Source: Thermoproteota archaeon (lineage in GTDB: Archaea; Thermoproteota; Methanomethylicia; Methanomethylicales; Methanomethylicaceae). From it: a DNA stretch of 64,000 nucleotides. A model generated the notes under the pieces. That model saw only the letters and a list, made by a program, of their open reading frames with translations. It searched no databases and had not been told where the DNA came from. Of this stretch, positions 1 to 52,229 are shown one piece after another. Numbering within the stretch: the first letter of the stretch is position 1; each line of letters begins with the position of its first letter. The position numbers and the translations under genes are program-made. The stretch is from positions 5,572 to 69,571 of the forward strand of contig VGLU01000004.1 of the NCBI GenBank assembly GCA_016882195.1. The letters run 5' to 3'.

Positions 1-464
1 CGATTGAAAATAGGGAAGCGATCGTTATCGAAGATATTAAAGGAATACGCAAGTTGTATCAGAAGGGCAACGGTCAGGGTCGCAGATATAGGAGTATGAT
101 GAATTCTTGGTCATTCGGAGAAGTTCAGAGACAGATAGAGTACAAAGCAAATTGGTCAGGCATCCCAATTATTCGCCTAACAAAAGGCGAGACGATGGGC
201 ACCTCAACCATCTGTCCAATATGTGGGGAGAGACTTCTGAATGGACGGAACAGGATGTTGTGGTGTATTTCATGTGGTATGAAAGCGGATCGAGATGTGG
301 TTGCGGTGATCAACCAGTCTCGAAGGGGACGGGTGAGGTTCGCACGTTCCCTGCCCACTGATAAAGGGGCGAAAGGCGGGGCAGTTGAAGCTGTGATGGG
401 GAACCCGACGACTACGGTAATCCTCGGAGTCGATGCCCTGAAGTTGAGTCATCAGAAGACTTGA
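1..464 (+). CDS. tnpB: IS200/IS605-family TnpB (OrfB) C-terminal part; 5' end lies off-window
   Basis: C-terminal zinc-finger/RuvC-III region (CPICGERLLNG...WCISCGMKADRDVVAVINQ). Near-identical at protein and DNA level to the C-terminus of the full TnpB at 42063..43283. Confidence 0.8.
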   Translation, partial: IENREAIVIEDIKGIRKLYQKGNGQGRRYRSMMNSWSFGEVQRQIEYKANWSGIPIIRLTKGETMGTSTICPICGERLLNGRNRMLWCISCGMKADRDVVAVINQSRRGRVRFARSLPTDKGAKGGAVEAVMGNPTTTVILGVDALKLSHQKT

Positions 465-473
465 CAGAACCCG
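1..473 (+). mobile_element. TnpB-only IS element copy A (partial; right end ~461-473 TTGACAGAACC)
   Basis: Shares a conserved ~90-nt right-end block (GGGAACCCGACGACTACGGTAATCCTCGGAG...CTTGACAGAACC) with the copies at 12846-12925 and 43197-43273. Similarity ends right after TTGACAGAACC. Confidence 0.6.
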
Positions 474-890: not shown

Positions 891-1976
891 CTATCGGGTT
901 ACGGGCTGTACCAGAGCAGCCCCTGACGCAGAGATATGCCCTGCGCGCCGTTGCATTATGTTGTATGCTCCATTGTAGTCAGCGTTGTATTCGTGTCCGC
1001 AACTATTGCATTTGAAGAGGCCTCCGACCCGAAGGCCCCTCTCGCCACAGTTGTGGCAGGTCTGAGAGGTGTATGCTTCAGAAATCTTCAGGACCGGTAC
1101 GCCGAACCATTCAGCCTTGTACTTGATGAATTGATAAAGCCTGTAGAATGGAAAGCTATTGAGCTTTCTGTTGAAGGTTCTGCCGCTTCTGTTTGTTCTT
1201 ATTCCTTTCAGGTCTCCTATCACTATGGCTGAATTGTTCCTGTATGCCTCATTGACTATCCTCCTGCTTACTGTGTGGAGGATTGAGTCGGTTGCACGCC
1301 TCTCGCGGTTGGATATCTTCTTGATTGCTCCGTACGCCCCTTTCCTCTGCAACTCCTTTCTTAGCTTGTAGAAGTGTGAACGGACTTTCCTCAACTCTTT
1401 GCCGTAGAATTTCGGCCTGATATCATTTGAATTGATCGTAGTTGCTATGTTTCTTATCCCCATGTCTACGGCGAGTATTGACTGCGGTCTTCTTTCTTCG
1501 ATTTCCTTCTCTACAGTGACATACACATACCAGTCCGAGCCGCGCCTGATGAGCTTGGCCTCCCTTGTCCTCGCTCCTTCTGGAATCGGTGAGGAGGTGG
1601 CTATGGGAACATTGATTCCTCCCCTCTTGCCTGCTACGGGAATCCTCATCCAGTATGGAGTCAGCTTCGTTTCTTCCCTATGCAAATCATAAACATCGTT
1701 CCTGAGGATTATCGGGTACTCCTTGTCTGGATCAAGTCTACCACAGTTCTGCCTCCTCAATCTGTTGAGGAATCTATCGGCCTGTTGCTTTGTTGCGGAG
1801 CAGAGCTCTGCTGACTTATGCCCACGGAGGTAGCGTTGAAAACTCAGATACTCCTGTTCGAGGAGGAGCCTTTTTCCCTCTCTCAATTCAAGAATCTTTG
1901 CCTTTACTGTCTTCTTTGCTATCACAGGCGGCCTGTCCTCAATTGTATGAAGGATATTTAAGCGCATTTGTCCCAC
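891..1976 (-). CDS. tnpB: TnpB-like (IS200/IS605 OrfB) protein, second subfamily
   Basis: 361 aa with a C-terminal zinc finger CHNCGERG...CNSCGHEYNADYNGAYNI and a RuvC-like core. No tnpA nearby. Confidence 0.8.
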   Translation of the reverse strand: MGQMRLNILHTIEDRPPVIAKKTVKAKILELREGKRLLLEQEYLSFQRYLRGHKSAELCSATKQQADRFLNRLRRQNCGRLDPDKEYPIILRNDVYDLHREETKLTPYWMRIPVAGKRGGINVPIATSSPIPEGARTREAKLIRRGSDWYVYVTVEKEIEERRPQSILAVDMGIRNIATTINSNDIRPKFYGKELRKVRSHFYKLRKELQRKGAYGAIKKISNRERRATDSILHTVSRRIVNEAYRNNSAIVIGDLKGIRTNRSGRTFNRKLNSFPFYRLYQFIKYKAEWFGVPVLKISEAYTSQTCHNCGERGLRVGGLFKCNSCGHEYNADYNGAYNIMQRRAGHISASGAALVQPVTR

Positions 1977-12471: not shown

Positions 12472-12530
12472 AATTCTCTCCTATGATAAAGCCGAATGAT
12501 TCGCCATATAAATAAAAATTACGGAAAATT

Positions 12531-12925
12531 GTTCTGTAAAGACTTCGTCGGATTTAAATACCTAATCTAATTGCGGGGGCGAGGCGAAAGGAGGCTACAG
12601 GGCTGATCCTAGGCTCATTTCAATTAATTGACTGCAGCGAAACGAGGAATCGCATCAACTGTACGCCCGATATGTGGGGAGAGACTCCTGAATGGGCAAG
12701 GTTGCCGTATGAGGCGTTCATACGGAATGGAGGCAGACGGGGACGCGGTTGCCATGATGAAACAGCCCTGAGGGGGCGGTTGAGGTTCGACCGTTCCCTG
12801 CCTTTAAACGATAAGGCGAAAGGCTGGGCAGTTGAAGCGGTGAGGGGGAACCCGACGACTACGGTAATCCTCGGAGCTGATGCCCCGAAGTCGACTGTTC
12901 GCCAAACGGAGAGTTGACAGAACCC
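12531..12925 (+). mobile_element. MITE-like internally deleted derivative of the TnpB IS (left end + tnpB 3' end + right end, no nuclease ORF)
   Basis: Left-end motif TGTAAAG..TCGTCGGATTTAAATAC matches 42008-42036 upstream of the full copy. Positions 12660-12925 match the tnpB zinc-finger region and right end of 43007-43273. The only ORF is an 81-aa frame-degraded remnant. Confidence 0.55.
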
Positions 12926-13012
12926 GGAAAATGCTGTTTAACGGCTCATGGCGCTCTGGATGAGCGGGATTAGGGAAGGCTGCCAAAAAATTAGATGAAA
13001 AAAGAAAGGAGG

Positions 13013-23032: not shown

Positions 23033-24982
23033 TTATCTGGGAGCGCCTTCCAGGCGCCTCCGGATCTCCTCCTTGAGCAACTCATGGAGTACCTTGCCGC
23101 CGACCTTCCCCCTGAAGGTCTTCATCAGATCGCCCATCAGCGGGCTTAGGGCGCGCTCGCCGTCCCGCCTTATCCTCTCCATGTTCCTGCCCACCAGCTC
23201 GGCGACGGCGGCCTTTAGCGCAGCGGTGTCCACCGCACCGAGCGAGAGAGCCCTCGTGGCCTCCTCAATGCTCCTTCCCCTGTTGGACGCGAGCCACCGG
23301 AAGATCTCGGCCACGGCCTCCTTTGCAACCTCCCCCTTGTGCACCCTTATCAGGACATCCCTGATCTGCCCCTCCTCCAGCGACTCCACGTCTATCCCCT
23401 CCCGCTTCAGCATCTTTAGGGTGTACTCGAAGGTCGCTGCGACGAAGGAGGGTGCCAGCCCATCAGATTTAACGAGCCTCTCAAAGGTTATTGCGTAGGG
23501 CGAGTCGACTATTAACGCGGCGAGGTCCTTGCTCAGCCCGTACTCCTTTATGTACCGCTCCGTTCTCTTCTCCAGAAGCTCCGGGAGATCCCTCCTTATT
23601 TTGTCGAGCAGGTCTGCACCAACGACTATGGAGGGGACGTCGGTCTCGGGGTACATCCTGGCCGAGCCTGGCATCGGCCTCATGAAGTGGGTCGTGCCAT
23701 CTGGATTGAAGGCCCTCACCTCGCCGGGGACGCCCTTCAAAGCCTCCGATGCCCTCATGACAACGGCATTCAGAGCGACCGAGCCGACCGCTGCCTCGGC
23801 GGCGACGAAGACCACGGCGTCGTTCTCGGTGGCACTGACCTTCTTCCTCAACCCCCTAAGATCCTCCTCCGTGATGCCGTAGGCGGGCAGCTCGTCTGTG
23901 TGGAATATGCCGCCGACCCCACCGAAGACCTTTGCGTGGTCTGAGAGCTCCATGCCGAACCTCCTACCCGGCTGCAACTCCGTCTTGAGGAGACCACCGT
24001 AGCCTGGCAGGAGGACGGCCTGCACCCTTCCGCCGGACTCCAGGGCCTTTTTTATAACCTTGCCGTTCGAGGATGAGAATACGTCGGTTACGTCCACGAC
24101 CTTGGGCCTTGGGGCGGTTACGCCCCTCCTCTTCAGCTCCTCCCTCAGCAGGAGTAGGTTCCTCTGCCTGGTGACCTCGTACTCCACCACGGTTGAGATG
24201 AGGCCCAGCTCTTGGACGCCCTTCACCTCGATCCTCGTTCCTCCCTCTATGGAGATGTTCAGATCCTGCCGTATGGTTCCCAGCCCCCGCTTCATCCTCC
24301 CGGTTGCCTTCAGGATCCTGCCGAGTTGGAGGGCGACGCGCTCGGCCTGCTCCCCGCTGTGGATGTCCGGTCCTGTTGCGATCTCCACGAGGGGAATCCC
24401 GAGGCGGTCAAGCCGGTAGGTCATCATTTCGGGGGTATCGGAGATCTTCCTCGCGGCATCCTCCTCGAGGCAGAGGGACTGCATGGTGATCCTCTCCTCG
24501 CCGTCCATGAGCCAGCCGTCAAACGCGATCTTGGCGGTCCGCTGAAACCCGGTGGTGTTGGAGCCATCTATGACGATCTTCCTCATCACATGTATCTCGT
24601 CAACGGGGGTCATGTTCAGGAGCGCCGCCACCGTTAATGATATGGAGACCGCGTCCCTGTTCAGGTCGTGGGGCGGCTCCTCGTCGAGCTCCACGAGGCA
24701 GACTGTATCGTTATAGCCCTGGTAGCAGAAGGTCCTCCTCCTCTCTGACTCGAAGAGCGCCGCCCTGTCGAGATCCCCGAGCTCGCTGTATGTCGGCTTC
24801 AGCCTCCTCAGGATCGAGAAGTGCGGATCCTCCTCCCTGAGAACGGTCGGGCAGCCGCAGAAGAGCTTCTTGGGGGTGTCGAGCTGCTGGTGAATCTCTA
24901 TACCCACTTTGATGTGATGGTTGACACTCTCCACGGCTAAAGCCGGGAGATTCCTGCCTCTAAAGGCTTCATGACCATTCAT
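23033..24982 (-). CDS. gatE: Glu-tRNA(Gln) amidotransferase subunit E
   Basis: GIEIHQQL...LFCGCP GatB-like core plus archaeal insertion. True start probably ~24934; the ORF N-terminus overlaps the TnpB stop. Confidence 0.85.
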   Translation of the reverse strand: MNGHEAFRGRNLPALAVESVNHHIKVGIEIHQQLDTPKKLFCGCPTVLREEDPHFSILRRLKPTYSELGDLDRAALFESERRRTFCYQGYNDTVCLVELDEEPPHDLNRDAVSISLTVAALLNMTPVDEIHVMRKIVIDGSNTTGFQRTAKIAFDGWLMDGEERITMQSLCLEEDAARKISDTPEMMTYRLDRLGIPLVEIATGPDIHSGEQAERVALQLGRILKATGRMKRGLGTIRQDLNISIEGGTRIEVKGVQELGLISTVVEYEVTRQRNLLLLREELKRRGVTAPRPKVVDVTDVFSSSNGKVIKKALESGGRVQAVLLPGYGGLLKTELQPGRRFGMELSDHAKVFGGVGGIFHTDELPAYGITEEDLRGLRKKVSATENDAVVFVAAEAAVGSVALNAVVMRASEALKGVPGEVRAFNPDGTTHFMRPMPGSARMYPETDVPSIVVGADLLDKIRRDLPELLEKRTERYIKEYGLSKDLAALIVDSPYAITFERLVKSDGLAPSFVAATFEYTLKMLKREGIDVESLEEGQIRDVLIRVHKGEVAKEAVAEIFRWLASNRGRSIEEATRALSLGAVDTAALKAAVAELVGRNMERIRRDGERALSPLMGDLMKTFRGKVGGKVLHELLKEEIRRRLEGAPR

Positions 24983-26231
24983 GGTAGTTCCACCTCAAGG
25001 GCAGGGGCTGTGCCATCAGCCCGCTACCGCTGGTCTTCCCTTCATATGAGTCTGTGCTAAGGACTGGGGGAGACCTTTTCACGGCTACGTTCAATATGTT
25101 TACAGCACCGTTGACGTCGGCGTTGATGCTTTTATGCTTCTCACGGCAGATCATCAGTCCCCTTTCTATCCTGCCGTTGTGCTGTTTTCCGCACAGGCAG
25201 CATGTCCTCGACGTATCCCTCTCAGAGACTTTCTTAACGATTATGCCGTACTCTTCTCCAAGTTCAAGGATACGCTTGACGATTTTGTCGTAGGCCCAGA
25301 AGAGATGTAGCTTCTGATTTCCTCTTTTGCCGTGGTTTGCCTCTTCTCTGATTCCGTTGAGGTCCCCGATGTAAAGTTCACTCACGTTCCCCTGTTCCAA
25401 ATGCGAAAAGATGCTCCTTAACATGGCGTTTATTGCGTGCTTCAGCCTTCTCTGTCTTCTCCTAAACTGAAGCCGAATACGTTTGGATGCGTGTCTTTTT
25501 CGTGGGAGTTTTGACTGCTTATCCGCTATCTCCTTTGTATGGTAAATCCAGTCTGAGAGAACTGCTCTGCCAGAGTAGATTATTGGTCTCTCGCCCTCTA
25601 TATAGAGGGTTGCAAGGTTGCATATGCCCAGATCCAAGGATGCCTTTTTGGCATCGGTTTGACTCCGACTCGGAGGCTGCCAATCAACCTCGACTGGGAT
25701 ATGGGCATACCACCTCCTGTTGATCTCATCTTTTATGACTTCTAATCGACCCCACTTACCCACCCACAGCTCTCCGCATTGATAGGGAATCCTGTTTCTG
25801 GAGATTGAGATTTCTTTTTCGTTCATTCTCCAGCCGTCGTTTCTAACGTAGAACGCCTTCGCCTCTCTTTTTCCGTTTCGCTTCCAATATTTTGGTGGAC
25901 GTATCTTGCGAATATGTGGTGGTAACTTTCCCTTTTTCTTGAGTCTGAGAAGGGCATGGAAGCTCTGCCAAGCCTCATTAAGTTTTGAAAGCAGAGCCTG
26001 TGCCTTACAGGTTCCAAGTTTCTTGAAGGGTTCAGTATGTTTAAGTTCTCTGCATTGAAGAGCGTAAGAAGGCATTTTCATATGTTCGTAGAAGGCTTTT
26101 CTACGCTCATAGTTTGCAATGTTCCATAAGATGGCTGACTGTTCAGCGTATTCACTAAGTGATTGTGTATCGGTGGGTTTGAGGAGAACCGTTGAGGTCC
26201 TTAGCACGTTTAATATGTTCTCAGAGCCCAT
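24969..26231 (-). CDS. tnpB: TnpB-like protein inserted between gatD and gatE
   Basis: 420 aa, RuvC-like core plus zinc finger RTCCLCGKQHNG...ICREKHKSINADVNGAVNI. Confidence 0.8.
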   Translation of the reverse strand: MGSENILNVLRTSTVLLKPTDTQSLSEYAEQSAILWNIANYERRKAFYEHMKMPSYALQCRELKHTEPFKKLGTCKAQALLSKLNEAWQSFHALLRLKKKGKLPPHIRKIRPPKYWKRNGKREAKAFYVRNDGWRMNEKEISISRNRIPYQCGELWVGKWGRLEVIKDEINRRWYAHIPVEVDWQPPSRSQTDAKKASLDLGICNLATLYIEGERPIIYSGRAVLSDWIYHTKEIADKQSKLPRKRHASKRIRLQFRRRQRRLKHAINAMLRSIFSHLEQGNVSELYIGDLNGIREEANHGKRGNQKLHLFWAYDKIVKRILELGEEYGIIVKKVSERDTSRTCCLCGKQHNGRIERGLMICREKHKSINADVNGAVNILNVAVKRSPPVLSTDSYEGKTSGSGLMAQPLPLRWNYHEWS

Positions 26232-26299: not shown

Positions 26300-27616
26300 T
26301 CAGCCCCTTTCCACATCAATGAAATCACTGCGTTCCGACAGCTCTCCCGCGATGTTCTTCAGGAAGAGCTCGCGGATCTTCTCGGGCTCGTCGGTCTGAC
26401 CCAAGACCCACATTAGCTTCACGAGGGCGGTCTCCGGGAGCATGTCTCCCGCGGGGATGACGCCCATGTTGAGAAGCTCCCTGCCGGTGCTGTAGACGTT
26501 CATGTTCACCCGCCCGTACAGGCACTGGGAGGCCATGACCACGGTCAGGCCGCTCTGAATCGCCCTTCTTATCGAGGGGAAGAGGCTCTCTGGCAGGTGC
26601 CCGAGACCGGTTCCCTCGAGGACTATGCCGCGGAAGCCCCTGTGGATTACGGGGTCGAAAATGTCTGGGGGCACCCCCGGGAAGGACTTGATTAGCACCA
26701 CGTCCTCCTCGAAGTTTGCCTTGAGCTCGAGCTCGCCACCGCCCCTCCTCCTGTACCCGCCGTAGGTCTCTATCTTGCCGTCCTGAACCCTGGCGAGGGG
26801 GAGGGCGTTTACAGAGGCGAAGGCGTCCCGCCGGCTCGTGTGCAACTTTCTTACTCTTGTGCCCCGGTGAACTACGAGGCTCGAGTCAGAGCTGCCCCCG
26901 TGCATTAGCACGCCGACCTCGGCGAAGGGGGCCCTCGCGGCTGCAAAGACGGCGCCCTTCAGGTTCAGATAGGCGTCCGAGGAGGGTCTGTCCGATGAGC
27001 GCTGGGAGCCGACCAGAATAACCGGTACAGGAAGGTTACTTAGGGCGAAGCTCAGCGCCGCGGCCGTGTACCCCATGGTGTCGGTGCCGTGCGTTATCAC
27101 GACGCCCTTGGCACCGTCCTTTATGTGGTTGGACACGGACCTCGCCATGGATCCCCAGTTCTCTGGAACGATGTTCTCGCTGAGGACGCTCAGAAGGATC
27201 TCGGTCCTGATGTCCGCCAGATCGCCCAGCTCAGGCACGGACTGGTAGAGGTCCCTCGCGGAGAGGGCCGGGCTCACCGCACCGGTCCTGTAGTCCACCT
27301 TGCTCGCGATGGTCCCGCCGGTGCTTATAATGGAGACCTTCGGCAGGCTGGGGTTGGACTTTGCCTCGAAGGGGGGCGGGCTTATTTTTGACTCCTCGGA
27401 GGGGAGCTTCTGGACGACTAATCCCTCTATGGAGAGGCCGATGTTGTAGCCGTCGTCGAGCTTCAGTATGAGGTGCTGGTCGTCGTCCAGCTCTGACCTC
27501 GGCATCAGGATTCCGGAGAAGGAGATCCTCTCGTTTTTGGCGAGAACCCTGTCGCCCACTTCTAGGCCGTGTTTCTTTATGAGCTCCAGAACCTTGCCTT
27601 TGTAACCAGAGACCAT
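26300..27616 (-). CDS. gatD: Glu-tRNA(Gln) amidotransferase subunit D (asparaginase-like)
   Basis: TGGTIAS, HGTDTM asparaginase motifs; 438 aa. Confidence 0.9.
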   Translation of the reverse strand: MVSGYKGKVLELIKKHGLEVGDRVLAKNERISFSGILMPRSELDDDQHLILKLDDGYNIGLSIEGLVVQKLPSEESKISPPPFEAKSNPSLPKVSIISTGGTIASKVDYRTGAVSPALSARDLYQSVPELGDLADIRTEILLSVLSENIVPENWGSMARSVSNHIKDGAKGVVITHGTDTMGYTAAALSFALSNLPVPVILVGSQRSSDRPSSDAYLNLKGAVFAAARAPFAEVGVLMHGGSSDSSLVVHRGTRVRKLHTSRRDAFASVNALPLARVQDGKIETYGGYRRRGGGELELKANFEEDVVLIKSFPGVPPDIFDPVIHRGFRGIVLEGTGLGHLPESLFPSIRRAIQSGLTVVMASQCLYGRVNMNVYSTGRELLNMGVIPAGDMLPETALVKLMWVLGQTDEPEKIRELFLKNIAGELSERSDFIDVERG

Positions 27617-38443: not shown

Positions 38444-41400
38444 CTACTGGGAGAAGAATTCCAGTCTCTTTATCCCCACGATCTCATCGAATTCTATGCC
38501 GAGAGCCTCGAGGACCTGCCCGAAGGTGGACTCTATGTGTCCCACGTATTTGTCCACATCGATCTCGTCTATCCTTGCCAGCTGGACCGGCTTAACGCCC
38601 AGGCCGCCCTGAACCTTTACGAAGGAGATTATGTCGCCGGGCTTGACCTCCTTGCCCTTATCCTCCAGCTGTTTTGCCGCCTTCACGTGCTGGGGCGTCG
38701 TCTTATGGTAGCCGGTGAGCGGCCTCGAGAGCATCACCTTGAAGGTCAGCTCGTCCAGGGAGAAGCGCCTGTTCTTAAGCCTTGTGTAGCAGTTCTGCAC
38801 GATCCCCTTTATCCTCGCCTTGGCCCTCGCGAAGTCCTGCGGGGTCTTTACCTCCTTCAGGACCTGGGTCATCTCCCCGAATGCGGACTGGATGAAGACG
38901 GGGGTGTTCCGCTTCTTCCCCATCAGCCCTTTTATGTCCACCACGCCGTTGTCCATGACGCCGAGGTAGTTCTTCTTCCTTCCGGAGAAGGTAACGAAGG
39001 TGTACCTCTTGTCCACCTCGAGGTCGATGCCGAAGCTTGATTCCGCCCAGCTGAGGAGCGCTCCTATCTGCTCCTTGGTGGGCTGGTACAAAAACAAACT
39101 ATCGGTGTCGGCATATATCACCTTGACTCCGGATTCTGTGGCCTTTTTGATGGTCTCAGTTATTATGTGCCTGCCTATGGCGGTGGTGCTGTCGGCCATC
39201 GAGAGGCAGTAGAGCGGGAATATCTCCGCACCGAAGACTCCGTAAGACTGCCCACAAGGGATTAATCTGCCATTGCGGCCAGCAAAGACAGTGTGGTTCT
39301 TTTTTGTAGTTATACAGTAAACTTGTCCATTGTATGGCATCTTAGTTTTTTTCCAATGATCTGTGTGTTGATTTATGTTTCTCCAAGTTATTCTAAATAG
39401 CTTAGCACCCTCATCATAGAATCGCCTTGATGAAGAAGCAGATGATGTCTTAAGCTTCGGGACGACGAAGTCTATCGCGTTGTATATCGCCTCTGCTGTA
39501 ACAAACCTGACTCCCCCGTTTTTATGGTCTGCGACAATGAATCTATGTTCTGGAGTGACGATCAGATCAGTAGATCTTCCGTTCTTGAAATGTAATAGAT
39601 CACCATTATAGTCGAATACCTGTGTCTCCACAACCTCGTCCACTTCTGGTTCGAGGGTAGCCGGATTTACGTTGATTACTTTGTCACCAATGTTGATATC
39701 CTTTACATTCTTTACACCATTGGTTGTGAGTATATCGGTGTCGCCTGTGAAACAAGCATTGAGGAAGACCTTAAGGGCCTGTTGCACGACCTTGTACCAG
39801 TCCCTCTCCTCCTGGGTGAGGGCGGGATCCTTGGACTTTGCCTTGAACCACTTCACCCTGACATCCTTCAGCAAGCCTATGATCAAGGCCATCAGCCCCA
39901 GCCGCTTTGTGCAGACCCAGTGTTTTGTGTCCGGGACCACGTTGGTCCGGCAGGACTCGTGGACGCACCTTACGGTCTCGTAGCTGAGGTTCCACTTTGC
40001 GATTATGCTGGGGTACAGGCTTGCAAAGTCCAGGACGACCACATCGAAGTAGACGTTGGACTCGGGCTTTATGACTATGGCGCCGTGGTACTTCTTCCCC
40101 TTGATCACCGCTGTTGTGGAGGCCTCTCCCTTCATGGCTTCTATGTCGCTCTCGCGGGGTATCAGACAGTTTCTTGCTCTGTGCTCAAAGAAGAATAGGC
40201 CCCTTATCCAGCGGGATATCCCTTGGCGCGTTACGTCCTCCATGGAGAGACGGGAGATCCTCATTATCATGGTGATGAGGTTCATTACCATGTTTGAGTT
40301 CTCGGTGGTAAGGCGCAACGCTATGAGGGAGTCCCTGAAGCAGTAGGACGCCAGGTCAAGGTAGCTGAGCTCGGAGACGGTCTTCTCTATCTGGATCTTC
40401 TTGATATTGAGGAGGGAGCTTGCCACGGCGTCGAGGGCGACCTCCCTGTATGAGTTTCCGAAGGCGTAGATCTGTATGGCGTGGTTGTGCATGAACTTGT
40501 AGAGGTCTATGTGTACCCCTGTGGGGAGGAGGGCGATCTCCCTTCCCATTATTATGGGGACCTCCTCCTTCTTCATGCCCAGGACCTGCGCGCGCCGCCA
40601 GAGGTAGTGGAGGTCGAAGTTGTCGCCGTTGAAGGTGATCACGATCGGGTAGTCCAGGAAGTACTTGAAGAGGAGCTTTATGAGGGACAACTCCTCCTCG
40701 AAGTACTCCAGCTGAACATCTTCCGGGAGTTCTGGGGGCCTGATGCCCTCCTCCACACCCATCCTCTTGAGGAGGAGGACCTTCCTCAGGCCGTCCGATC
40801 CAGCGAGGGATGCGCATATCACTTGGTTCCTGGCCACGCTCGGGTCAGGGATCCTGTCCAGCGCCTCCGTGGCCACCTCGATATCCACTGCAACGCGGCG
40901 GTAGTCGGGCACAGGGCTGATGAAGAGCGGGAACCAATCTGTGAGGGCGCTGAGGAGCTCGGGGGGTGACCTCTGGAATCTCTCCCTTATCGGCTCGAGA
41001 GGGACGGAGGGATCCTCCTTGACGAGGTTGCCGTCCTTTATTCGGTAGGAGTATCCCGGGATGAGCCCACGGTCGTAGATGTAGCAGTCGTGGTACCGGA
41101 TGTTGTCCTCCCAGGAATTCTGCAGAAGGTCCCTTATGTTGCGCCCACGGCCTCCTATGGAGAGGGGATCCCTGGCAACGACCTTTGTCATCCCTATCCT
41201 CTTGTCGTGGAGGGGGTCGTACTTCTCCACCTCTACTGTAGATTTTCTGTCGAAGCCGGGGTGGGATGCGATCTGCCTGTCCGAGAGGACCTCCTTGAGA
41301 GGAGTGTCGGTGAGGCAGTAGGGGAGGTGTCCTGTGTTGTCGTACCAGAAGACGGTTTTGCCCTTCTCGAGATCGTAGAGTTTCAGCAGCGCCTTGGCCC

Positions 41401-41704
41401 TGGAGCCGCTGTACGTGACGGAGAGCAGGGAGAGGGGACCCGCATTCTTTGGGGTCTCGGCCTCGAAGATGGTCCTCTCGACGACCTCCTCCTGCTCGGG
41501 TCCCTCGGCATACTCTTCTGGCCCCAGTTCCTCCGGCTCTGCCTCCACTTCATCGTAGGGCTCTTCTTCGGGATACTGCCCCTCCCTCTGGGAGGTTTCC
41601 TCGGCTTTCTCTGCCTTGACAGGTTCCCTCCGGGGGCTCTCGGGGGGCTCGGATGGTTTCGAGTCTCCCTTCTTGCCGGGCATGAACCTATCAAGACTTA
41701 CCAT
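38444..41704 (-). CDS. polB: family-B DNA polymerase containing a mini-intein in motif B and an acidic N-terminal extension
   Basis: Exo I VAVDIEVATE, motif A LDFASLYPSII, motif C IYADTDS. Motif B is split as KVFLNA|intein|SYGVFG. Confidence 0.9.
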   Translation of the reverse strand: MVSLDRFMPGKKGDSKPSEPPESPRREPVKAEKAEETSQREGQYPEEEPYDEVEAEPEELGPEEYAEGPEQEEVVERTIFEAETPKNAGPLSLLSVTYSGSRAKALLKLYDLEKGKTVFWYDNTGHLPYCLTDTPLKEVLSDRQIASHPGFDRKSTVEVEKYDPLHDKRIGMTKVVARDPLSIGGRGRNIRDLLQNSWEDNIRYHDCYIYDRGLIPGYSYRIKDGNLVKEDPSVPLEPIRERFQRSPPELLSALTDWFPLFISPVPDYRRVAVDIEVATEALDRIPDPSVARNQVICASLAGSDGLRKVLLLKRMGVEEGIRPPELPEDVQLEYFEEELSLIKLLFKYFLDYPIVITFNGDNFDLHYLWRRAQVLGMKKEEVPIIMGREIALLPTGVHIDLYKFMHNHAIQIYAFGNSYREVALDAVASSLLNIKKIQIEKTVSELSYLDLASYCFRDSLIALRLTTENSNMVMNLITMIMRISRLSMEDVTRQGISRWIRGLFFFEHRARNCLIPRESDIEAMKGEASTTAVIKGKKYHGAIVIKPESNVYFDVVVLDFASLYPSIIAKWNLSYETVRCVHESCRTNVVPDTKHWVCTKRLGLMALIIGLLKDVRVKWFKAKSKDPALTQEERDWYKVVQQALKVFLNACFTGDTDILTTNGVKNVKDINIGDKVINVNPATLEPEVDEVVETQVFDYNGDLLHFKNGRSTDLIVTPEHRFIVADHKNGGVRFVTAEAIYNAIDFVVPKLKTSSASSSRRFYDEGAKLFRITWRNINQHTDHWKKTKMPYNGQVYCITTKKNHTVFAGRNGRLIPCGQSYGVFGAEIFPLYCLSMADSTTAIGRHIITETIKKATESGVKVIYADTDSLFLYQPTKEQIGALLSWAESSFGIDLEVDKRYTFVTFSGRKKNYLGVMDNGVVDIKGLMGKKRNTPVFIQSAFGEMTQVLKEVKTPQDFARAKARIKGIVQNCYTRLKNRRFSLDELTFKVMLSRPLTGYHKTTPQHVKAAKQLEDKGKEVKPGDIISFVKVQGGLGVKPVQLARIDEIDVDKYVGHIESTFGQVLEALGIEFDEIVGIKRLEFFSQ
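39248..39754 (-). other. 169-aa mini-intein (no homing-endonuclease domain)
   Basis: Begins CFTGDTDIL (block A), has TPEHRF (block B) and VYCITTKKNHTVFAGRNG (block F). Ends ...LIPCGQ followed by Ser. Removing it restores K-x3-N-A-S-Y-G. Confidence 0.7.
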
Positions 41705-41971: not shown

Positions 41972-42004
41972 TTTAGTCCCTCGCTGTTTATATTATTTAT
42001 CAGA

Positions 42005-43273
42005 TTTTGTAAACTTTTCGTTGGATTTAAATACATGACCAATTGTTGGGAAACCATAATTTGTGATAGCTATAAAGAGTGTAAGGCAACGTTACATTCC
42101 ATCATGTATAATACTATGCTTAATGGAGCAATTCAGACTCATGATCAATGAGTGTATAGAAATAGGTATGACGAGTAACATTTCTTCGCTGAAAGCGCTC
42201 TCTATGAGGGCATATCATAAACTTGAGCCTTATAATGTGCCATCTTACTACAAGCTTTGTGCCATTTCAAGAGCGGCAGTGATTCTTACGTCAAGAAGGA
42301 AGTCGCTACGAAGGGGCATGCCGACTAAGAGCCCTTACGTCATGCGGCGGCATCTTACCTCATGCTATGGATTCAAATTCATCGGTAATGCTATAAGAAT
42401 ACCGGTGGGGCATAGAGAGTTCTTTGAAATTGAGTTAAACAAACACACTCAAGAGATTCTCTCCGACCCTGCCTTGAGGGTGCGTTCCTTTACACTAACG
42501 AACACCCATTTGAGCATCTGCTACTCGAAGGATGTTCAGGAACTGGAATGTGCAGATATCGCTGGCTTGGACAGAAATCTGAGAAACATCACCTATGGCA
42601 ACGATCAGCATGTAGTAAAATACAACCTATCAGAAGCAGTTAAGATAGCCAGGCGGACGAGCAAGATCATTGCTTCCTTCAAAAGGAAGGACATGCGGAT
42701 AAGGAAGAGGATAGCGTCGAAGTATGGACGGAGACAAAGGAACAGGGTCAACCAACTGCTTCATAATACAACCAAAGACATTGTTGAAAGGGCGTTTGCG
42801 AAAAGGGAGGCGATAGTTCTTGAGGATATTAGAGGCATTAGGAAATTGTATCGAAAGGGAAACGGACAAAGTCACAGATACAGAGGCATAATGAACGCTT
42901 GGTCATTCTGCGAGGTGCAGAGACAGATAGAGTACAAGGCGAAATGGAAAGGCATCCCAGTAATGCGCCTATCCAAAGAGGAAACTATGGGCACCTCCAC
43001 CCTCTGCCCGATATGTGGGGAGAGACTCCTGAATGGGCAATATATTAGCCGCCAGTTGTGGTGTCCTTCATGTGGAATGAAAGCAGACCGGGACATAGTT
43101 GCTGTATTAAATCAATCGCATAGGGGACGGGTGAGGTTCGCCCGTTCCCTGCCATGTGATGATAAGGCGAAAGGCGGGGCAGCTGAAGCTATGAGGGGGA
43201 ACCCTCTACGGATGGAGGTAATCCTCAGAGTCGATGCCCCGAAGTCGAGTCATGATAAAGACTTGACAGAACC
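42005..43273 (+). mobile_element. complete TnpB-only IS200/IS605-family element copy C
   Basis: Left-end motif TGTAAAC..TCGTTGGATTTAAATAC (shared with 12535-12563), tnpB, right end ending CTTGACAGAACC. Lies 38 nt upstream of a tRNA gene. Confidence 0.65.
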
Positions 43274-43283
43274 TAAGCTTTAA
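42063..43283 (+). CDS. tnpB: TnpB (IS200/IS605 OrfB)
   Basis: 406 aa with RuvC-like core and zinc finger CPICGERLLNGQ...WCPSCGMKADRDIVAVLNQ. Confidence 0.85.
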   Translation: MIAIKSVRQRYIPSCIILCLMEQFRLMINECIEIGMTSNISSLKALSMRAYHKLEPYNVPSYYKLCAISRAAVILTSRRKSLRRGMPTKSPYVMRRHLTSCYGFKFIGNAIRIPVGHREFFEIELNKHTQEILSDPALRVRSFTLTNTHLSICYSKDVQELECADIAGLDRNLRNITYGNDQHVVKYNLSEAVKIARRTSKIIASFKRKDMRIRKRIASKYGRRQRNRVNQLLHNTTKDIVERAFAKREAIVLEDIRGIRKLYRKGNGQSHRYRGIMNAWSFCEVQRQIEYKAKWKGIPVMRLSKEETMGTSTLCPICGERLLNGQYISRQLWCPSCGMKADRDIVAVLNQSHRGRVRFARSLPCDDKAKGGAAEAMRGNPLRMEVILRVDAPKSSHDKDLTEPKL

Positions 43284-43311
43284 ATTAACCTTTATGAGGA
43301 AATAGACGAGG

Positions 43312-43424
43312 GGGCCCGTCGTCTAGTCAGGATTAGGACGCAGATCTCGCAGACGTGACGGTTTTGCGAGGGCGTAAGCCTGCGGAGCCTGAAGTCCTGG
43401 GTTCAAATCCCAGCGGGCCCGCCA
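43312..43424 (+). tRNA. intron-containing tRNA (~34-nt intron in the anticodon arm); probable tRNA-Arg, anticodon ambiguous (GCG or CGC)
   Basis: Acceptor GGGCCCG/CGGGCCC, discriminator G, encoded CCA. D-arm has A14, GG, A20. T-loop GGGUUCAAAUCCC. Two possible 7-nt loops, CUCGCAG and CUGCGGA, flank the extra 34 nt. Acceptor and D-arm closely resemble the tRNA-Arg(CCG) at 45970-46061. Confidence 0.65.
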
Positions 43425-43435
43425 ACCTTCTGGCG

Positions 43436-43908
43436 TTTGGGTGGGAGAAGCTTGGATATCGCGGTGCTGAAGGATCCTGGAAGACATACTCAGACAGGGA
43501 TTTCGTGCTGAGGGGGATCGACCTCACGGTTGGGGAGCTGGACTTTATCATTATCAAAGGTAGGTCTGGCGCAGGGAAGACAACGCTGCTTAGGATCATG
43601 GGGCTACTAGAAAAGCCGAGCAGGGGCAGCGTCGTTCTATTCGGCAGGTAGGCGGGCAGTCTGAACGATACGCAGGCGTCGAGTATACGGCGGGATGGTA
43701 TAGGGTTCATCTTCCAAGATCTTAACCTCATCCCCCACCTGACAGTGCTCGAGAATATTGAGATCCCAATGTACCTGAAGGGGGTGCCGGCCGGCGAGAG
43801 GAGGATCAGCGGGTTGGAGCTACTTGAGAGGTTCGGCCTTAAAGATCTCGCCGAGCGCTACCCATCCGAGCTTAGTCAGGAGGAGAAGCAACGGGTCGCA
43901 GCATGAAT
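43436..43908 (+). pseudogene. degraded ABC-transporter ATP-binding gene (frameshifted, truncated before Walker B)
   Basis: Across two frames: ...WKTYSDRDFVLRGIDLTVGELDFIIIKGRSGAGKTTLLRIMGLLEKP...stop, then ...IGFIFQDLNLIPHLTVLENIEIP...PSELSQEEKQRVAA-stop. The N-terminal LDIAVLKD piece is in a third frame. Confidence 0.5.
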
Positions 43909-50911: not shown

Positions 50912-52229
50912 GTGGAGCTATACTCAGAAAGAGATGACGCCATTCAAATGAGCCATCCCTGGAGGACAAGGGGGGAGAAGAGGACAATAGCCGTAGAGTA
51001 CCAGCCGAGCGAGGAGATCCTGAGTTATCTCACTGACATGAGGGATGCGCTGAGGATGGCCCTCGTATACGCATATGTCATGGCAAGGGAGGACGACAGC
51101 AGGCTCCCAGGCCCTATAGCATTGAGGAGGAGGTTCAGGGAATGGTTCTACCCCCGATATGGCTATGCCAGGCACCACATCAGCCCCCTATGCAGAAATG
51201 CGGTGGCTTTGCTCAGGTCCTACAAGAAGAAGCATAAGAGGCTTGAGATACCTGAAGTTAAGAGGCTCGCAATGAGGATAGATGCAGAACTATTAAAGAG
51301 AGAGCAGGGAAATGATGGTTCAGTATCCGTCAGGATAACACTTCAACCATTCAAGTATGAACATATCACGTTTACCCCGAGGCACAAGAGGTGGGAGGAG
51401 TACAATAAAGGAAGGGCATCCGAGCTTCTGATCACAGATAGGAGGCTATACATAACCTTCGTTACCAACGGTGGGAAGAAGGAAACCCCTTGGTAGCAGG
51501 TTCGTTGCCTCAGACCTCAACTTCAACACAATAGACTCGACCGTGGCATCAAAGGAAGGTGAAACAGTCAAGCTCCGGCAGGCGAGGACAGAGCCTATTG
51601 GCAGAATCGCAAGGATACAGAACGACTTCTCAAGAAGGAGAAGAAGGATACAATTACATATAAAGAACCCGAAGAAGAGAGCGAAGAAGCTCAAAGAGAC
51701 GAGGGGGAGGCAGAGGAACAGGATAAGGGACGCTCTCCAAAAGCTCTCAGCTGAACAGGTGAGAGAGAATCCTGGCGCATCATTCGTCTTCGAGAGGCTG
51801 ACCAGGATAAGGGAGAACGATAATGCAAAGAGCAAGAAGCTTCGAACATACTTGAACAGATGGCCATACCGGATGTACCAGTCAATGGTGGAGTACAAGT
51901 CCACCTTTAGGACCGTATACGTGAGCCCAGGAGGGACCTCATCGAGGTGTCCCGTATGTGGTGGTAAGGTAAGGCACCCAGCCTGGGCTGTGAGCAGGTG
52001 CGAGAAATGCGGCGCAGACTACGGCAGGGACAGGCTTTCCTCGCTGGAGATACTCCTCCGTGGTATGCGCCTGTGCGGCCAACCGTTTGCCGTGAGTGCG
52101 GATGCCTCCTGGCGGCTTATGAGGGATGAGTACCTGTACGCTCCTGCCGTGCCTGACGGCTGGAGGGCAGGATGGACCGAGGCTGCCAACGCTCCGAATG
52201 GGAATGTATATGAAAATATACATTCCTAG
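50912..52229 (+). pseudogene. tnpB: TnpB-like gene (third subfamily) split by a frameshift near 51470-51500
   Basis: N-terminal half 50912-51496 and C-terminal half 51471-52229 (RuvC-like core plus SRCPVCGG...CEKCGADYGRDRLSSLEIL zinc finger) lie in different frames. Confidence 0.6.

What the first reader, a model, noticed from the sequence alone, without database searches (positions are those of the whole stretch)
42005..43290. TnpB-only IS family with three copies sharing a conserved right end (candidate omega-RNA module)
Copies at 1-473 (partial), 12531-12925 and 42005-43273 share an almost identical ~260-nt block spanning the tnpB zinc-finger codons and a right end terminating in CTTGACAGAACC. 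Downstream flanks differ completely: CGACAAG, CGGAAAA, TAAGCTT. In IS200/IS605 TnpB systems the guide RNA is transcribed from the tnpB 3' end and right end and reads into flanking DNA. Strong right-end conservation despite divergent coding N-termini fits a structured-RNA constraint. No tnpA occurs in the window, so the elements are non-autonomous or domesticated.
Basis: partly seen in the sequence, partly recalled or inferred. Interest (0 to 1): 0.6.

Follow-up and report, generated by a model that had tools for sequence, protein, structure and literature searches.

The report
TnpB guide-RNA transposon with inverted ends
The window holds three copies of a small archaeal mobile element carrying an RNA-guided nuclease (TnpB) and its structured guide RNA, but this family has inverted-repeat ends and duplicates 8 bases of its target, so it probably moves differently from textbook TnpB elements.

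Summary
The three copies are real: a full element (42003-43273), one cut by the window edge (1-471), and a 395-bp internally deleted derivative (12530-12924). The 406-aa protein is a TnpB with an intact RuvC triad, zinc finger and Cas12f/TnpB fold, and it is under purifying selection.

The last ~150 nt of each copy encode a structured RNA. It has three covarying helices plus a candidate pseudoknot and ends exactly at the right-end tip. Synonymous change drops about threefold there. The omega-RNA reading is strongly supported by sequence. No transcript data exist.

The IS200/IS605 filing fails. Across 160 related archaeal loci the family has ~22-25-bp terminal inverted repeats (GGTTCTGTtAAcT...) and 8-bp target-site duplications: 27 perfect and 8 with 7/8 matches among 77 elements, against ~0.1% in controls. 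Copy B shows one (CGGAAAAT). Both features match the IS6/IS26 family.

A strictly one-sided 5'-(T/A)-T-(G/A) motif sits just before the left duplication. It is a candidate TAM, which would make the guide the duplicated 8 bp plus the right flank. No transposase of any kind was found in the window or in any flank.

Verdict: a new variant of a known kind, moderately to highly interesting.

The parts
42003..43273 (+). Copy C: full-length element (1271 bp), tnpB only
   Evidence: Left end aligns with those of copies B and A (D20, 23, 29). Right tip ...CTTGACAGAACC is shared by all copies and by relatives. Length fits the 1233-1336 bp of duplication-bearing relatives. No target duplication at this copy, and the left tip is degenerate (GATTTTGT against the consensus GGTTCTGT).
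42003..42027 (+). Left-end inverted repeat of copy C (degenerate), followed by a TATA-like box TTTAAATA at 42026-42033
   Evidence: Family consensus: left end GGtTCTGTtAAcTtaTCgtcgGaT, reverse complement of right end GGTTCTGTtAAcTctTCGt. Identity within an element stays high to about position 22-25. The promoter role of the TATA-like box is inference.
42063..43283 (+). tnpB ORF, 406 aa (GTG start; stop TAA lies 10 nt beyond the element tip)
   Evidence: Pfam Cas12f1-like_TNB 7e-15. NCBIfam TIGR01766 is above its cut-off; guided_TnpB scores 95 bits against a cut-off of 100. ISDra2 TnpB structures hit at E 2.7e-9. D170/E254/D344 and C315/C318/C337 are invariant and C334 nearly invariant in 32 relatives. 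AlphaFold pLDDT is 80 and Foldseek top hits are Cas12f/TnpB/Fanzor2. dN/dS is 0.15-0.23.
43122..43273 (+). Omega-RNA scaffold of copy C. Hairpin H1 43122-43150, with loop GGTTC at 43135-43139. Long-range helix H2, CGGGGCA 43175-43181 with TGCCCCG 43235-43241. Terminal hairpin H3, GTCGAG 43244-43249 with CTTGAC 43262-43267. Tail AGAACC 43268-43273. Candidate pseudoknot GGUUC with GAACC (43269-43273).
   Evidence: MFE z-score -4.96. RNAalifold gives 21 pairs, 19 with compensatory changes. 92.3% of cells are paired against 64.3% shuffled and 30-41% slid. Independent loci give 89.0% against 78.8%. Five helices on 85 sequences give 90.7% against 69.0%. Pseudoknot: 96.8-98% paired with a few compensatory changes. 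Covariance-model hit of 123.1 bits. Synonymous differences are 0.25 here against 0.65-0.74 upstream. Coordinates.
43274..43289 (+). Predicted guide of copy C (TAAGCTTTAAATTAAC), read from flanking DNA. It overlaps the TATA-like box upstream of tRNA-Ala.
   Evidence: Inference from omega-RNA anatomy in ISDra2-type TnpB. Homology among copies stops exactly at 43273. No second match within 4 mismatches in the window. tRNA-Ala(CGC) with an intron lies at 43312-43424.
12530..12924 (+). Copy B: 395-bp internally deleted derivative (MITE-like) with both ends and no intact tnpB
   Evidence: Left end 12530-12561 resembles that of copy C (D20). Only 47- and 81-aa ORF fragments remain. Omega-RNA scaffold 12771-12924 scores 121.9 bits, with a compensatory G-C to U-A change in H1.
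12519..12529 (+). TTA (candidate TAM, 12519-12521) followed by the left copy of the target-site duplication CGGAAAAT (12522-12529)
   Evidence: Sequence read. It fits the family rule: T at -2 in 34/35 and a purine at -1 in 35/35 duplication-bearing insertions.
12925..12932 (+). Right copy of the target-site duplication CGGAAAAT, which is also the first 8 nt of the predicted guide of copy B
   Evidence: 8/8 identity with 12522-12529.
1..471 (+). Copy A: the 3' 471 nt of a full element cut by the window start. Omega-RNA scaffold 324-471, predicted guide 472-487 CGACAAGTTTTTATAA.
   Evidence: Translation matches the C-terminus of P0003 / MBM5805013.1. The full copy was recovered as L082. Covariance-model hit of 119.7 bits. 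The stop codon TGA at 462-464 lies inside the terminal hairpin, in a different frame outcome from copy C.

Best explanation
These are three copies of a non-autonomous TnpB/omega-RNA (OMEGA) transposon from a large archaeal family found in Verstraetearchaeota, Bathyarchaeia and Nitrososphaerota.

Shown: the element holds one gene, a catalytically intact TnpB under purifying selection. Its 3' ~150 nt, overlapping the disordered C-terminal tail of the protein and ending at the right-end tip, encode a conserved structured RNA with three covarying helices and a likely loop-tail pseudoknot. The element ends are ~22-25-bp imperfect inverted repeats starting GGTTCTGT. Insertions are flanked by 8-bp target-site duplications. 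A one-sided 5'-(T/A)-T-(G/A) motif precedes the left duplication.

Inferred: the RNA is the omega-RNA scaffold, made from the tnpB transcript, and its guide is the 16-20 nt beyond the tip, that is the duplicated 8 bp plus the right flank.

Inferred: the elements are moved in trans by a separately encoded transposase of the inverted-repeat, staggered-cut (DDE) kind. An IS6/IS26-like enzyme is the best guess because tip sequence and duplication length both match.

Inferred: TTR is the TAM. An empty site (TTR + 8 bp + flank) would then be cut by TnpB and repaired from an occupied copy (homing). The occupied site would be protected on the left because only 8 nt match, and on the right because ...ACC replaces the TAM.

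In this window copy B looks like a once-mobile miniature. Copies A and C are older insertions whose left tips have decayed and whose duplications are lost, while the right end, RNA and ORF are kept.
For: TnpB identity. Selection on the protein: dN/dS 0.15-0.23.

RNA: z-score -4.96. 92.3% of cells paired against 64.3% shuffled and 30-41% slid, with 215 double-change cells. Replicated on 84 hits from 80 independent metagenome loci and on 85 genome hits down to 36% protein identity. G-U pairs are common in H1 and H3, so the sense strand is the one that folds. Synonymous differences fall to 0.25 in codons 353-400 against 0.65-0.74 upstream, with flat non-synonymous differences. Copies A and C end in different reading frames over the same conserved nucleotides. 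Residues 362-406 are predicted disordered. Copy B keeps the RNA without the gene.

Ends: inverted repeats seen. Duplications: 27 perfect 8/8 and 8 with 7/8 among 77 distinct elements, against 0.03% and 0.07% for mismatched flank pairs. Of elements with 13-14/14 repeat matches, 16 of 20 carry a duplication. Near-identical copies in one Nitrosopumilus chromosome have different duplications (L031, L036, L037).

TAM candidate: T at -2 in 34/35 and G/A at -1 in 35/35, with no mirror motif on the right side.

IS6 features from the literature: 8-bp repeats, 15-20-bp inverted repeats, GG tip, cTGTt (PMC7986276); GG and G7 nearly universal (PMC6807381).

No transposase gene in the window or recurring in the flanks of 160 loci. 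All elements are 1.23-1.34 kb.
Against: No transposase with matching ends was found, so the DDE/IS6 step rests on end anatomy alone. The match to IS6 covers only the first ~9-12 nt and the duplication length, and the IS6 'caaa' motif is absent.

The window's two long copies have no duplication and no TTR at the expected place.

No RNA data, no cleavage data and no empty sites were available. A TAM inferred from insertion sites could instead reflect the transposase's own target preference.

Left-end calling by a 14-nt match yields some false left ends, with about 0.2 chance hits per locus at 10/14. This lowers the apparent duplication rate but does not create duplications.

A few insertions are probably orthologous, for example L142/L143, so there are somewhat fewer than 35 independent events.

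Confidence: 0.7

Rival explanations
1. This is an ordinary IS200/IS605 (IS1341-group) TnpB-only element. It would be moved as single-stranded DNA by a Y1 TnpA encoded elsewhere and inserted directly 3' of a short target that serves as the TAM.
For: NCBI names these proteins 'IS200/IS605 family element transposase accessory protein TnpB'. The right end has a subterminal hairpin (H3). A short T-rich motif lies to the left of insertions.
Against: The family has terminal inverted repeats and 8-bp target duplications. IS200/IS605, ISC and TnpB-only elements are stated to lack both (PMC13565253; PMC4810608; PMC3627910). The target motif is separated from the left end by the duplicated 8 bp. No Y1 TnpA-like ORF was found in the window or in 160 flanks.
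Confidence: 0.07
2. Copies A and C are domesticated. The transposon function is dead, and the host keeps TnpB plus omega-RNA for another purpose, for example acting at the promoter immediately downstream.
For: The left tips of A, C and several close relatives are degenerate and their duplications are lost, while the right end, RNA and ORF are conserved. dN/dS is 0.15-0.23. The predicted guides cover TATA-like boxes of downstream genes: tRNA-Ala for C, LSM for A, EF-1alpha in L091.
Against: The guide matches its own flank by construction, and that site lacks the TTR motif. The RuvC triad is intact, unlike nuclease-dead TldR-type derivatives. Orthologous copies decay (L094 and L108 are truncated). 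In compact genomes, intergenic insertion inevitably lands in promoters. No second target for any guide exists in the window.
Confidence: 0.12
3. TnpB itself, with its RNA, takes part in transposition, for example in end recognition or target choice. The last ~14-25 nt of the omega-RNA scaffold are the right inverted repeat and are therefore complementary to the top strand of the left end. The TTR motif is near-obligatory.
For: No other gene lies in any of ~160 elements. The inverted repeat coincides with the 3' arm of hairpin H3 and the pseudoknot tail. The target motif is strict and one-sided (34/35), which is unusual for a merely helpful homing nuclease.
Against: There is no precedent for it. 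In tested IS605/IS607 elements TnpB is dispensable for transposition (PMC3627910). An 8-bp staggered duplication is the signature of DDE strand transfer. Known TnpB cuts are TAM-distal (own knowledge of ISDra2 TnpB).
Confidence: 0.06
4. The right-end conservation reflects only protein coding plus a transposase-binding repeat, and there is no functional RNA.
For: The region codes for the TnpB C-terminus, and its last ~25 nt are the inverted repeat.
Against: Compensatory changes span 150 nt, far beyond the repeat, and include a long-range helix about 60 nt apart. Synonymous sites are suppressed while non-synonymous sites are not. The encoded tail is disordered and its frame differs between copies. 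The gene-less copy B keeps every helix.
Confidence: 0.03

Closest known systems
ISDra2-type TnpB with omega/reRNA (IS200/IS605 OMEGA system; PDB 8exa, 8h1j)
   Same: Same protein family and fold, with the RuvC D-E-D triad and a C4 zinc finger. The structured RNA overlaps the 3' end of tnpB and ends at the right-end tip, with the guide expected from the flank. The candidate TAM is T-rich and lies 5' of the target.
   Different: The ends are inverted repeats, and insertion duplicates 8 bp. The candidate TAM is separated from the left end by that duplication, so the guide would start with the duplicated bases. No Y1 TnpA was found. Scores are far below the NCBIfam IS200_TnpB and IS607_TnpB cut-offs. 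No Rfam family matches the RNA.
IS6/IS26 family insertion sequences
   Same: 8-bp target duplications. Short terminal inverted repeats with a GG tip, G at position 7 and CTGTt (PMC7986276, PMC6807381). Some relatives read GGTTCTGTTGCG (L024). From memory, this equals the first 11 nt of the IS257/ISS1 repeat. Copies without duplications are common, as expected after replicative or recombinational events.
   Different: No IS6-type DDE transposase lies inside the element or was found nearby. The cargo is tnpB and the length is 1.27 kb rather than ~0.8 kb. The repeat extends to ~22-25 nt, lacks 'caaa', and its inner part co-varies with an RNA hairpin. The one-sided target motif is not a known IS6 trait.
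Fanzor (eukaryotic TnpB homologues) in non-autonomous TIR/TSD transposons
   Same: A TnpB-family nuclease is the only gene of a non-autonomous element with inverted repeats and target duplications (10.1101/2023.08.09.552727; PMC3627910).
   Different: The host is archaeal, the protein is TnpB-sized at 406 aa, the duplication is 8 bp and the tips are IS6-like.
Prokaryotic TnpB linked to DDE transposases (IS630, ISL2, IS1031; 'DDE' branches of Altae-Tran et al. 2023)
   Same: A precedent that OMEGA modules can ride in inverted-repeat DDE transposons with symmetrical ends (PMC10691335; PMC13565253).
   Different: Those associations were found through an adjacent DDE gene. Here no transposase gene accompanies tnpB in any of ~160 loci. 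The end type is IS6-like with an 8-bp duplication, which is not among those listed.

Membership tests
TnpB (OMEGA RNA-guided nuclease) | RuvC-like catalytic triad D-E-D | tested here: met
   D170, E254 and D344 are invariant in 32 relatives. They align with the ISDra2 TnpB catalytic motifs.
TnpB (OMEGA RNA-guided nuclease) | C4 zinc-finger / TNB domain and overall TnpB/Cas12f fold | tested here: met
   PF07282 7e-15. C315, C318 and C337 are invariant and C334 nearly invariant. The AlphaFold model has pLDDT 80. Foldseek hits Cas12f, TnpB and Fanzor2 at E 1e-16 to 1e-11. TIGR01766 is above its cut-off; guided_TnpB scores 95.2 bits against a cut-off of 100.
TnpB (OMEGA RNA-guided nuclease) | Structured omega-RNA encoded by the tnpB 3' end and right end, ending at the transposon boundary | tested here: met
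   Covariation. Synonymous-site suppression. The model matches end exactly at the tip in 3 window copies and ~170 relatives.
TnpB (OMEGA RNA-guided nuclease) | Transcript with a flank-derived guide; TAM-dependent RNA-guided DNA cleavage | not testable with these tools
   Needs RNA-seq and a cleavage or TAM-depletion assay. The candidate TAM 5'-(T/A)TR is inferred from 35 insertion sites.
IS200/IS605 (incl. IS1341 TnpB-only group) | No terminal inverted repeats | tested here: not met
   ~22-25-bp imperfect inverted repeats. Identity within an element is 0.7-1.0 over positions 1-22 (examples).
IS200/IS605 (incl. IS1341 TnpB-only group) | No target-site duplication; left end abuts a 4-5-nt target | tested here: not met
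   8-bp duplications in 35 of 77 elements, against ~0.1% in controls. The target motif lies 8 bp away from the left tip. Copy B has CGGAAAAT on both sides.
IS200/IS605 (incl. IS1341 TnpB-only group) | Mobilised by a Y1 (HUH) TnpA | tested here: inconclusive
Whole genomes could not be searched.
IS607 | Serine-recombinase TnpA; no inverted repeats, no duplication | tested here: not met
   Inverted repeats and duplications are present. No resolvase-type gene is annotated in the window. IS607_TnpB scores 39 bits against a cut-off of 350.
IS6/IS26 family | 8-bp target-site duplication | tested here: met
   The base after the right duplication is not G-enriched, so the length is 8 and not 9.
IS6/IS26 family | Short terminal inverted repeats with GG tip, G at position 7, cTGTt | tested here: met
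   Consensus GGtTCTGTtAAcT at both ends, compared with PMC7986276 and PMC6807381. The 'caaa' motif is absent.
IS6/IS26 family | Encodes an IS6-type DDE transposase (H-HTH + DDE) | tested here: not met
   The only gene is tnpB. There is no IS26-like ORF in the window or in 160 flanks. So it is not a member; at most it is a non-autonomous element using such an enzyme in trans, which is untested.
MITE (copy B only) | Both transposon ends, target duplication, no intact transposon gene | tested here: met
   12530-12924 has a left end, a right end and the duplication CGGAAAAT, with only 47- and 81-aa ORF remnants.
TldR-type nuclease-dead TnpB regulators | Inactivated RuvC site; stable non-mobile locus | tested here: not met
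   The catalytic triad is intact. Relatives are mobile, with different duplications in one genome.

The most novel reading that the evidence does not exclude
A large, deep archaeal clade of TnpB/omega-RNA modules lives in non-autonomous transposons with IS6-like inverted repeats and 8-bp target duplications. Its TAM (5'-TTR) abuts the duplicated bases, so the guide begins with the duplication. This would be the first prokaryotic TnpB-only family shown to have terminal inverted repeats and target duplications, a counterpart of the Fanzor lifestyle, and it contradicts the textbook statement that TnpB-only elements lack both. In the more radical version, the near-obligatory one-sided TTR motif and the identity of the inverted repeat with the omega-RNA 3' end mean that TnpB and its RNA help choose targets or recognise the ends.
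Probability: 0.45. Interest if true: 0.75.

Novelty: new variant of a known kind. Interest (0 to 1): 0.62.

Why it matters
How the very abundant TnpB-only elements of archaea move, and what TnpB gains them, is still open. The current model (scarless single-strand or serine-recombinase excision followed by TnpB-driven restoration) was built on IS605 and IS607.

A family with inverted repeats and target duplications, but a conserved omega-RNA and a one-sided TAM-like motif abutting the duplication, gives a directly testable case. It shows how an RNA-guided nuclease can serve a staggered-cut transposon: the guide is the duplication plus the flank, and the empty site is the only cleavable site.

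It also gives a prokaryotic parallel to Fanzor capture by DDE transposons.

On the practical side it supplies compact archaeal nucleases of ~400 aa, a defined ~150-nt scaffold and a short predicted TAM. The covariance model could also be used to annotate this RNA, which Rfam 15 does not match at either threshold.

Tried and rejected
- Empty-site search. I looked up exact copies of the neighbouring proteins (CoA-transferase, 71-aa protein) in other assemblies. All contigs were identical to the window or broke inside the repeat, so no unoccupied site was found.
Clustering of flank ORFs gave only housekeeping genes such as EF-1alpha and aIF2-gamma, plus antisense artefacts. Extra tip-like motifs in flanks were solo right-end remnants or chance.
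- A scan of viral contigs for the 18-nt repeat gave 7 single, unpaired hits, read as chance.
- A full-text search for GGTTCTGTT was uninformative. The supplement of Altae-Tran 2023 is not held.
- A fourth helix (GGGGA with UCCUC) is visible by eye but only 73% paired on the model alignment, so it is inconclusive.
- Rfam gave no family for the right end at gathering or permissive threshold.
- The idea that copies A and C exchanged flanks by inversion was checked by eye. Their four flanks share no 8-mer in either orientation.
Full report
**What is in the window.** Three regions share a right end (alignment; repeat families). A 29-nt pattern from that end occurs three times against none expected.

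- Copy C, 42003-43273, is complete. Its ORF (42063-43283, 406 aa) carries the Cas12f1-like TNB domain and hits ISDra2 TnpB structures at E 2.7e-9 over residues 92-385.
- Copy A, 1-471, is the 3' end of a second full copy cut by the window edge. Its C-terminus is identical to MBM5805013.1 from a Candidatus Verstraetearchaeota MAG. The whole copy was recovered as L082.
- Copy B, 12530-12924, keeps the left end (12532-12561 resembles 42005-42034, D20) and the right ~260 nt but has lost most of tnpB.

Along the A/C alignment, identity rises from 64-72% to 78-83% after about 42900.

Gene calls with Pfam hits covering 1266-64000 show no Y1, serine or DDE transposase. Positions 1-1265 hold only the end of copy A, an LSM gene and part of another tnpB.

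**The protein.** A search of 5.8 billion proteins returned 2126 relatives, named where named as TnpB from Verstraetearchaeota, Bathyarchaeia, Nitrososphaerales and Nitrosotalea.

- In 32 relatives with 53-68% identity to copy C, D170, E254, D344 (RuvC) and C315, C318, C337 are invariant and C334 nearly so.
- The AlphaFold model (pLDDT 80) matches Cas12f, TnpB and Fanzor2 structures at E 1e-16 to 1e-11. Residues 362-406 are disordered.
- dN/dS among subfamily members is 0.15-0.23.
- NCBIfam places it just under the general guided_TnpB cut-off and far under the narrow IS200 and IS607 TnpB models.

**The RNA.** The region 43060-43290 folds far better than shuffles (z -4.96). I fetched 80 genome loci and 80 metagenome loci.

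- On 41 right ends, RNAalifold predicts a hairpin, a long-range helix and a terminal hairpin, with 19 of 21 pairs showing compensatory changes.
- 92.3% of cells pair, against 64.3% in shuffles and 30-41% when partners are slid. There are 215 double-change cells.
- A covariance model from 28 sequences finds exactly three hits in the window, 84 in the 80 metagenome loci not used for training and 85 in the genome loci, down to 36% protein identity. All are on the tnpB strand and all end at the element tip.
- The independent set keeps the structure: 89.0% paired against 78.8%.
- Frequent G-U pairs show that the sense strand is the one that folds.
- The H1 loop GGUUC can pair with the terminal GAACC. 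This is 96.8-98% paired with a few compensatory changes, for example in L008 and L072. I treat it as a candidate pseudoknot.
- Synonymous differences fall from 0.65-0.74 to 0.25 in codons 353-400, while non-synonymous differences stay at 0.18-0.21.
- Copies A and C finish in different frames over the same nucleotides.
- Rfam has no matching family.

So the omega-RNA reading is well supported by sequence. The transcript itself was not observed.

**The ends are not IS605-like.** Upstream regions of relatives begin GGTTCTGT..., the reverse complement of the right tip ...ACAGAACC. Within an element the two ends match over ~22-25 nt.

The 8 nt before the left tip repeat after the right tip. Among 77 distinct elements with a called left end, 27 have 8/8 and 8 have 7/8 matches. 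Mismatched flank pairs give 0.03% and 0.07% (first seen). Elements with the best repeats (13-14/14) carry a duplication in 16 of 20 cases. Near-identical copies in one Nitrosopumilus chromosome have different duplications, which indicates recent movement. Copy B in the window has CGGAAAAT on both sides.

Reviews state that IS200/IS605, IS607, ISC and TnpB-only elements lack both features. By contrast, the IS6 family is defined by 8-bp repeats and short inverted repeats with a GG tip, G7 and cTGTt.

No IS6-like, Y1 or other transposase was found inside or beside any element. All duplication-bearing elements are 1233-1336 bp. I therefore call the ends IS6-like and do not file the element in that family.

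**A one-sided target motif.** In the 35 duplication-bearing insertions, the base at -2 from the left duplication is T in 34, and the base at -1 is G (23) or A (12), never a pyrimidine. Position -3 is T or A in 33. Nothing comparable follows the right duplication. Copy B reads TTA.

A one-sided motif next to the sequence that the guide would match is what a TAM looks like. This is an inference. It could also be the transposase's own preference, as in IS605, where target and TAM coincide.

**How it probably works.** tnpB is transcribed from a TATA-like box just inside the left end (42026-33, inferred). The 3' part of the transcript folds into the scaffold and continues into the flank as guide (inferred from ISDra2-type systems).

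An unidentified transposase acting on the inverted repeats inserts the element with an 8-bp staggered cut (inferred from anatomy). TnpB would then cut unoccupied TTR + 8 bp + flank sites, and repair from an occupied copy would spread or restore the element.

Occupied sites escape on both sides. The left junction offers the TAM but only 8 matching bases. The right junction offers the full match but ...ACC in place of the TAM.

**State of the window copies.** Copies A and C, and several close relatives, have degenerate left tips (GATTCT, GATTTTGT, GATCCTGT) and no duplication, but intact right ends and ORFs. That fits old insertions kept by selection on TnpB and its RNA, or rearrangement of the kind IS6-type elements cause. 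Domestication is a minor rival.

Their predicted guides overlap TATA-like boxes of downstream genes: tRNA-Ala for C, LSM for A. I read this as a consequence of intergenic insertion. No second target exists in the window.

**Novelty.** Associations of TnpB with DDE transposases (IS630, ISL2, IS1031) are described, and so are Fanzors in transposons with inverted repeats and duplications. I found no description of a prokaryotic TnpB-only family with inverted repeats and target duplications, nor of IS6-like ends on a tnpB element. The literature search covers open-access text only.

Noticed in passing
window 891-1976 (-): A second, unrelated tnpB (361 aa; OrfB_IS605 + TNB domains). Its RuvC-II motif reads AIVIGDLKG, with Gly where the catalytic Glu normally sits, so it may be a rearranged or inactive site.
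   Followed up: partly
window 24969-26231 (-): A third tnpB (420 aa) lies between gatD (26300-27616) and gatE (23033-24982). Its end overlaps the gatE start by 14 nt, which leaves no room for a separate right end.
   Followed up: no
window 50912-51496 and 51471-52229 (+): A TnpB-like gene split into two overlapping ORFs, an MJ0013-like N-terminal part and a TNB-domain part. The same split occurs in other assemblies.
   Followed up: partly
window 43312-43424 (+): tRNA-Ala(CGC) with a 34-nt intron, 38 nt downstream of the right tip of copy C. It was missed by default ARAGORN and by Rfam at gathering score, and found with the intron option. A TATA-like box TTTAAATT at 43279-86 lies inside the predicted guide.
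   Followed up: yes
window 43355-43651 and 43745-43906 (+): Two ORF fragments resembling an ABC-transporter ATPase (Walker A in the first). They look like a frameshifted pseudogene, and the first overlaps the tRNA gene.
   Followed up: no
window 38444-41704 (-): A family-B DNA polymerase of 1086 aa with an intein inserted in the polymerase domain.
   Followed up: no
L103 159-309; L107 1763-1923; L110 1773-1923; L115 1764-1923; L133 30-183; L036 853-1041: Extra full-length matches to the omega-RNA model without an adjacent tnpB. They may be further miniature derivatives like copy B, or cut neighbours.
   Followed up: no
L037 2840-2890: Two solo right-end tips (...CGACAGAACC and ...GTTACAGAACC) in tandem, just upstream of the left end of a full element. 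This suggests repeated insertion or decay at one spot.
   Followed up: no
L091 3704-3790; L046; L038; L068: Elements of this family repeatedly sit next to translation genes such as EF-1alpha and aIF2-gamma, with the right tip 10-15 nt from a TATA-like box.
   Followed up: partly
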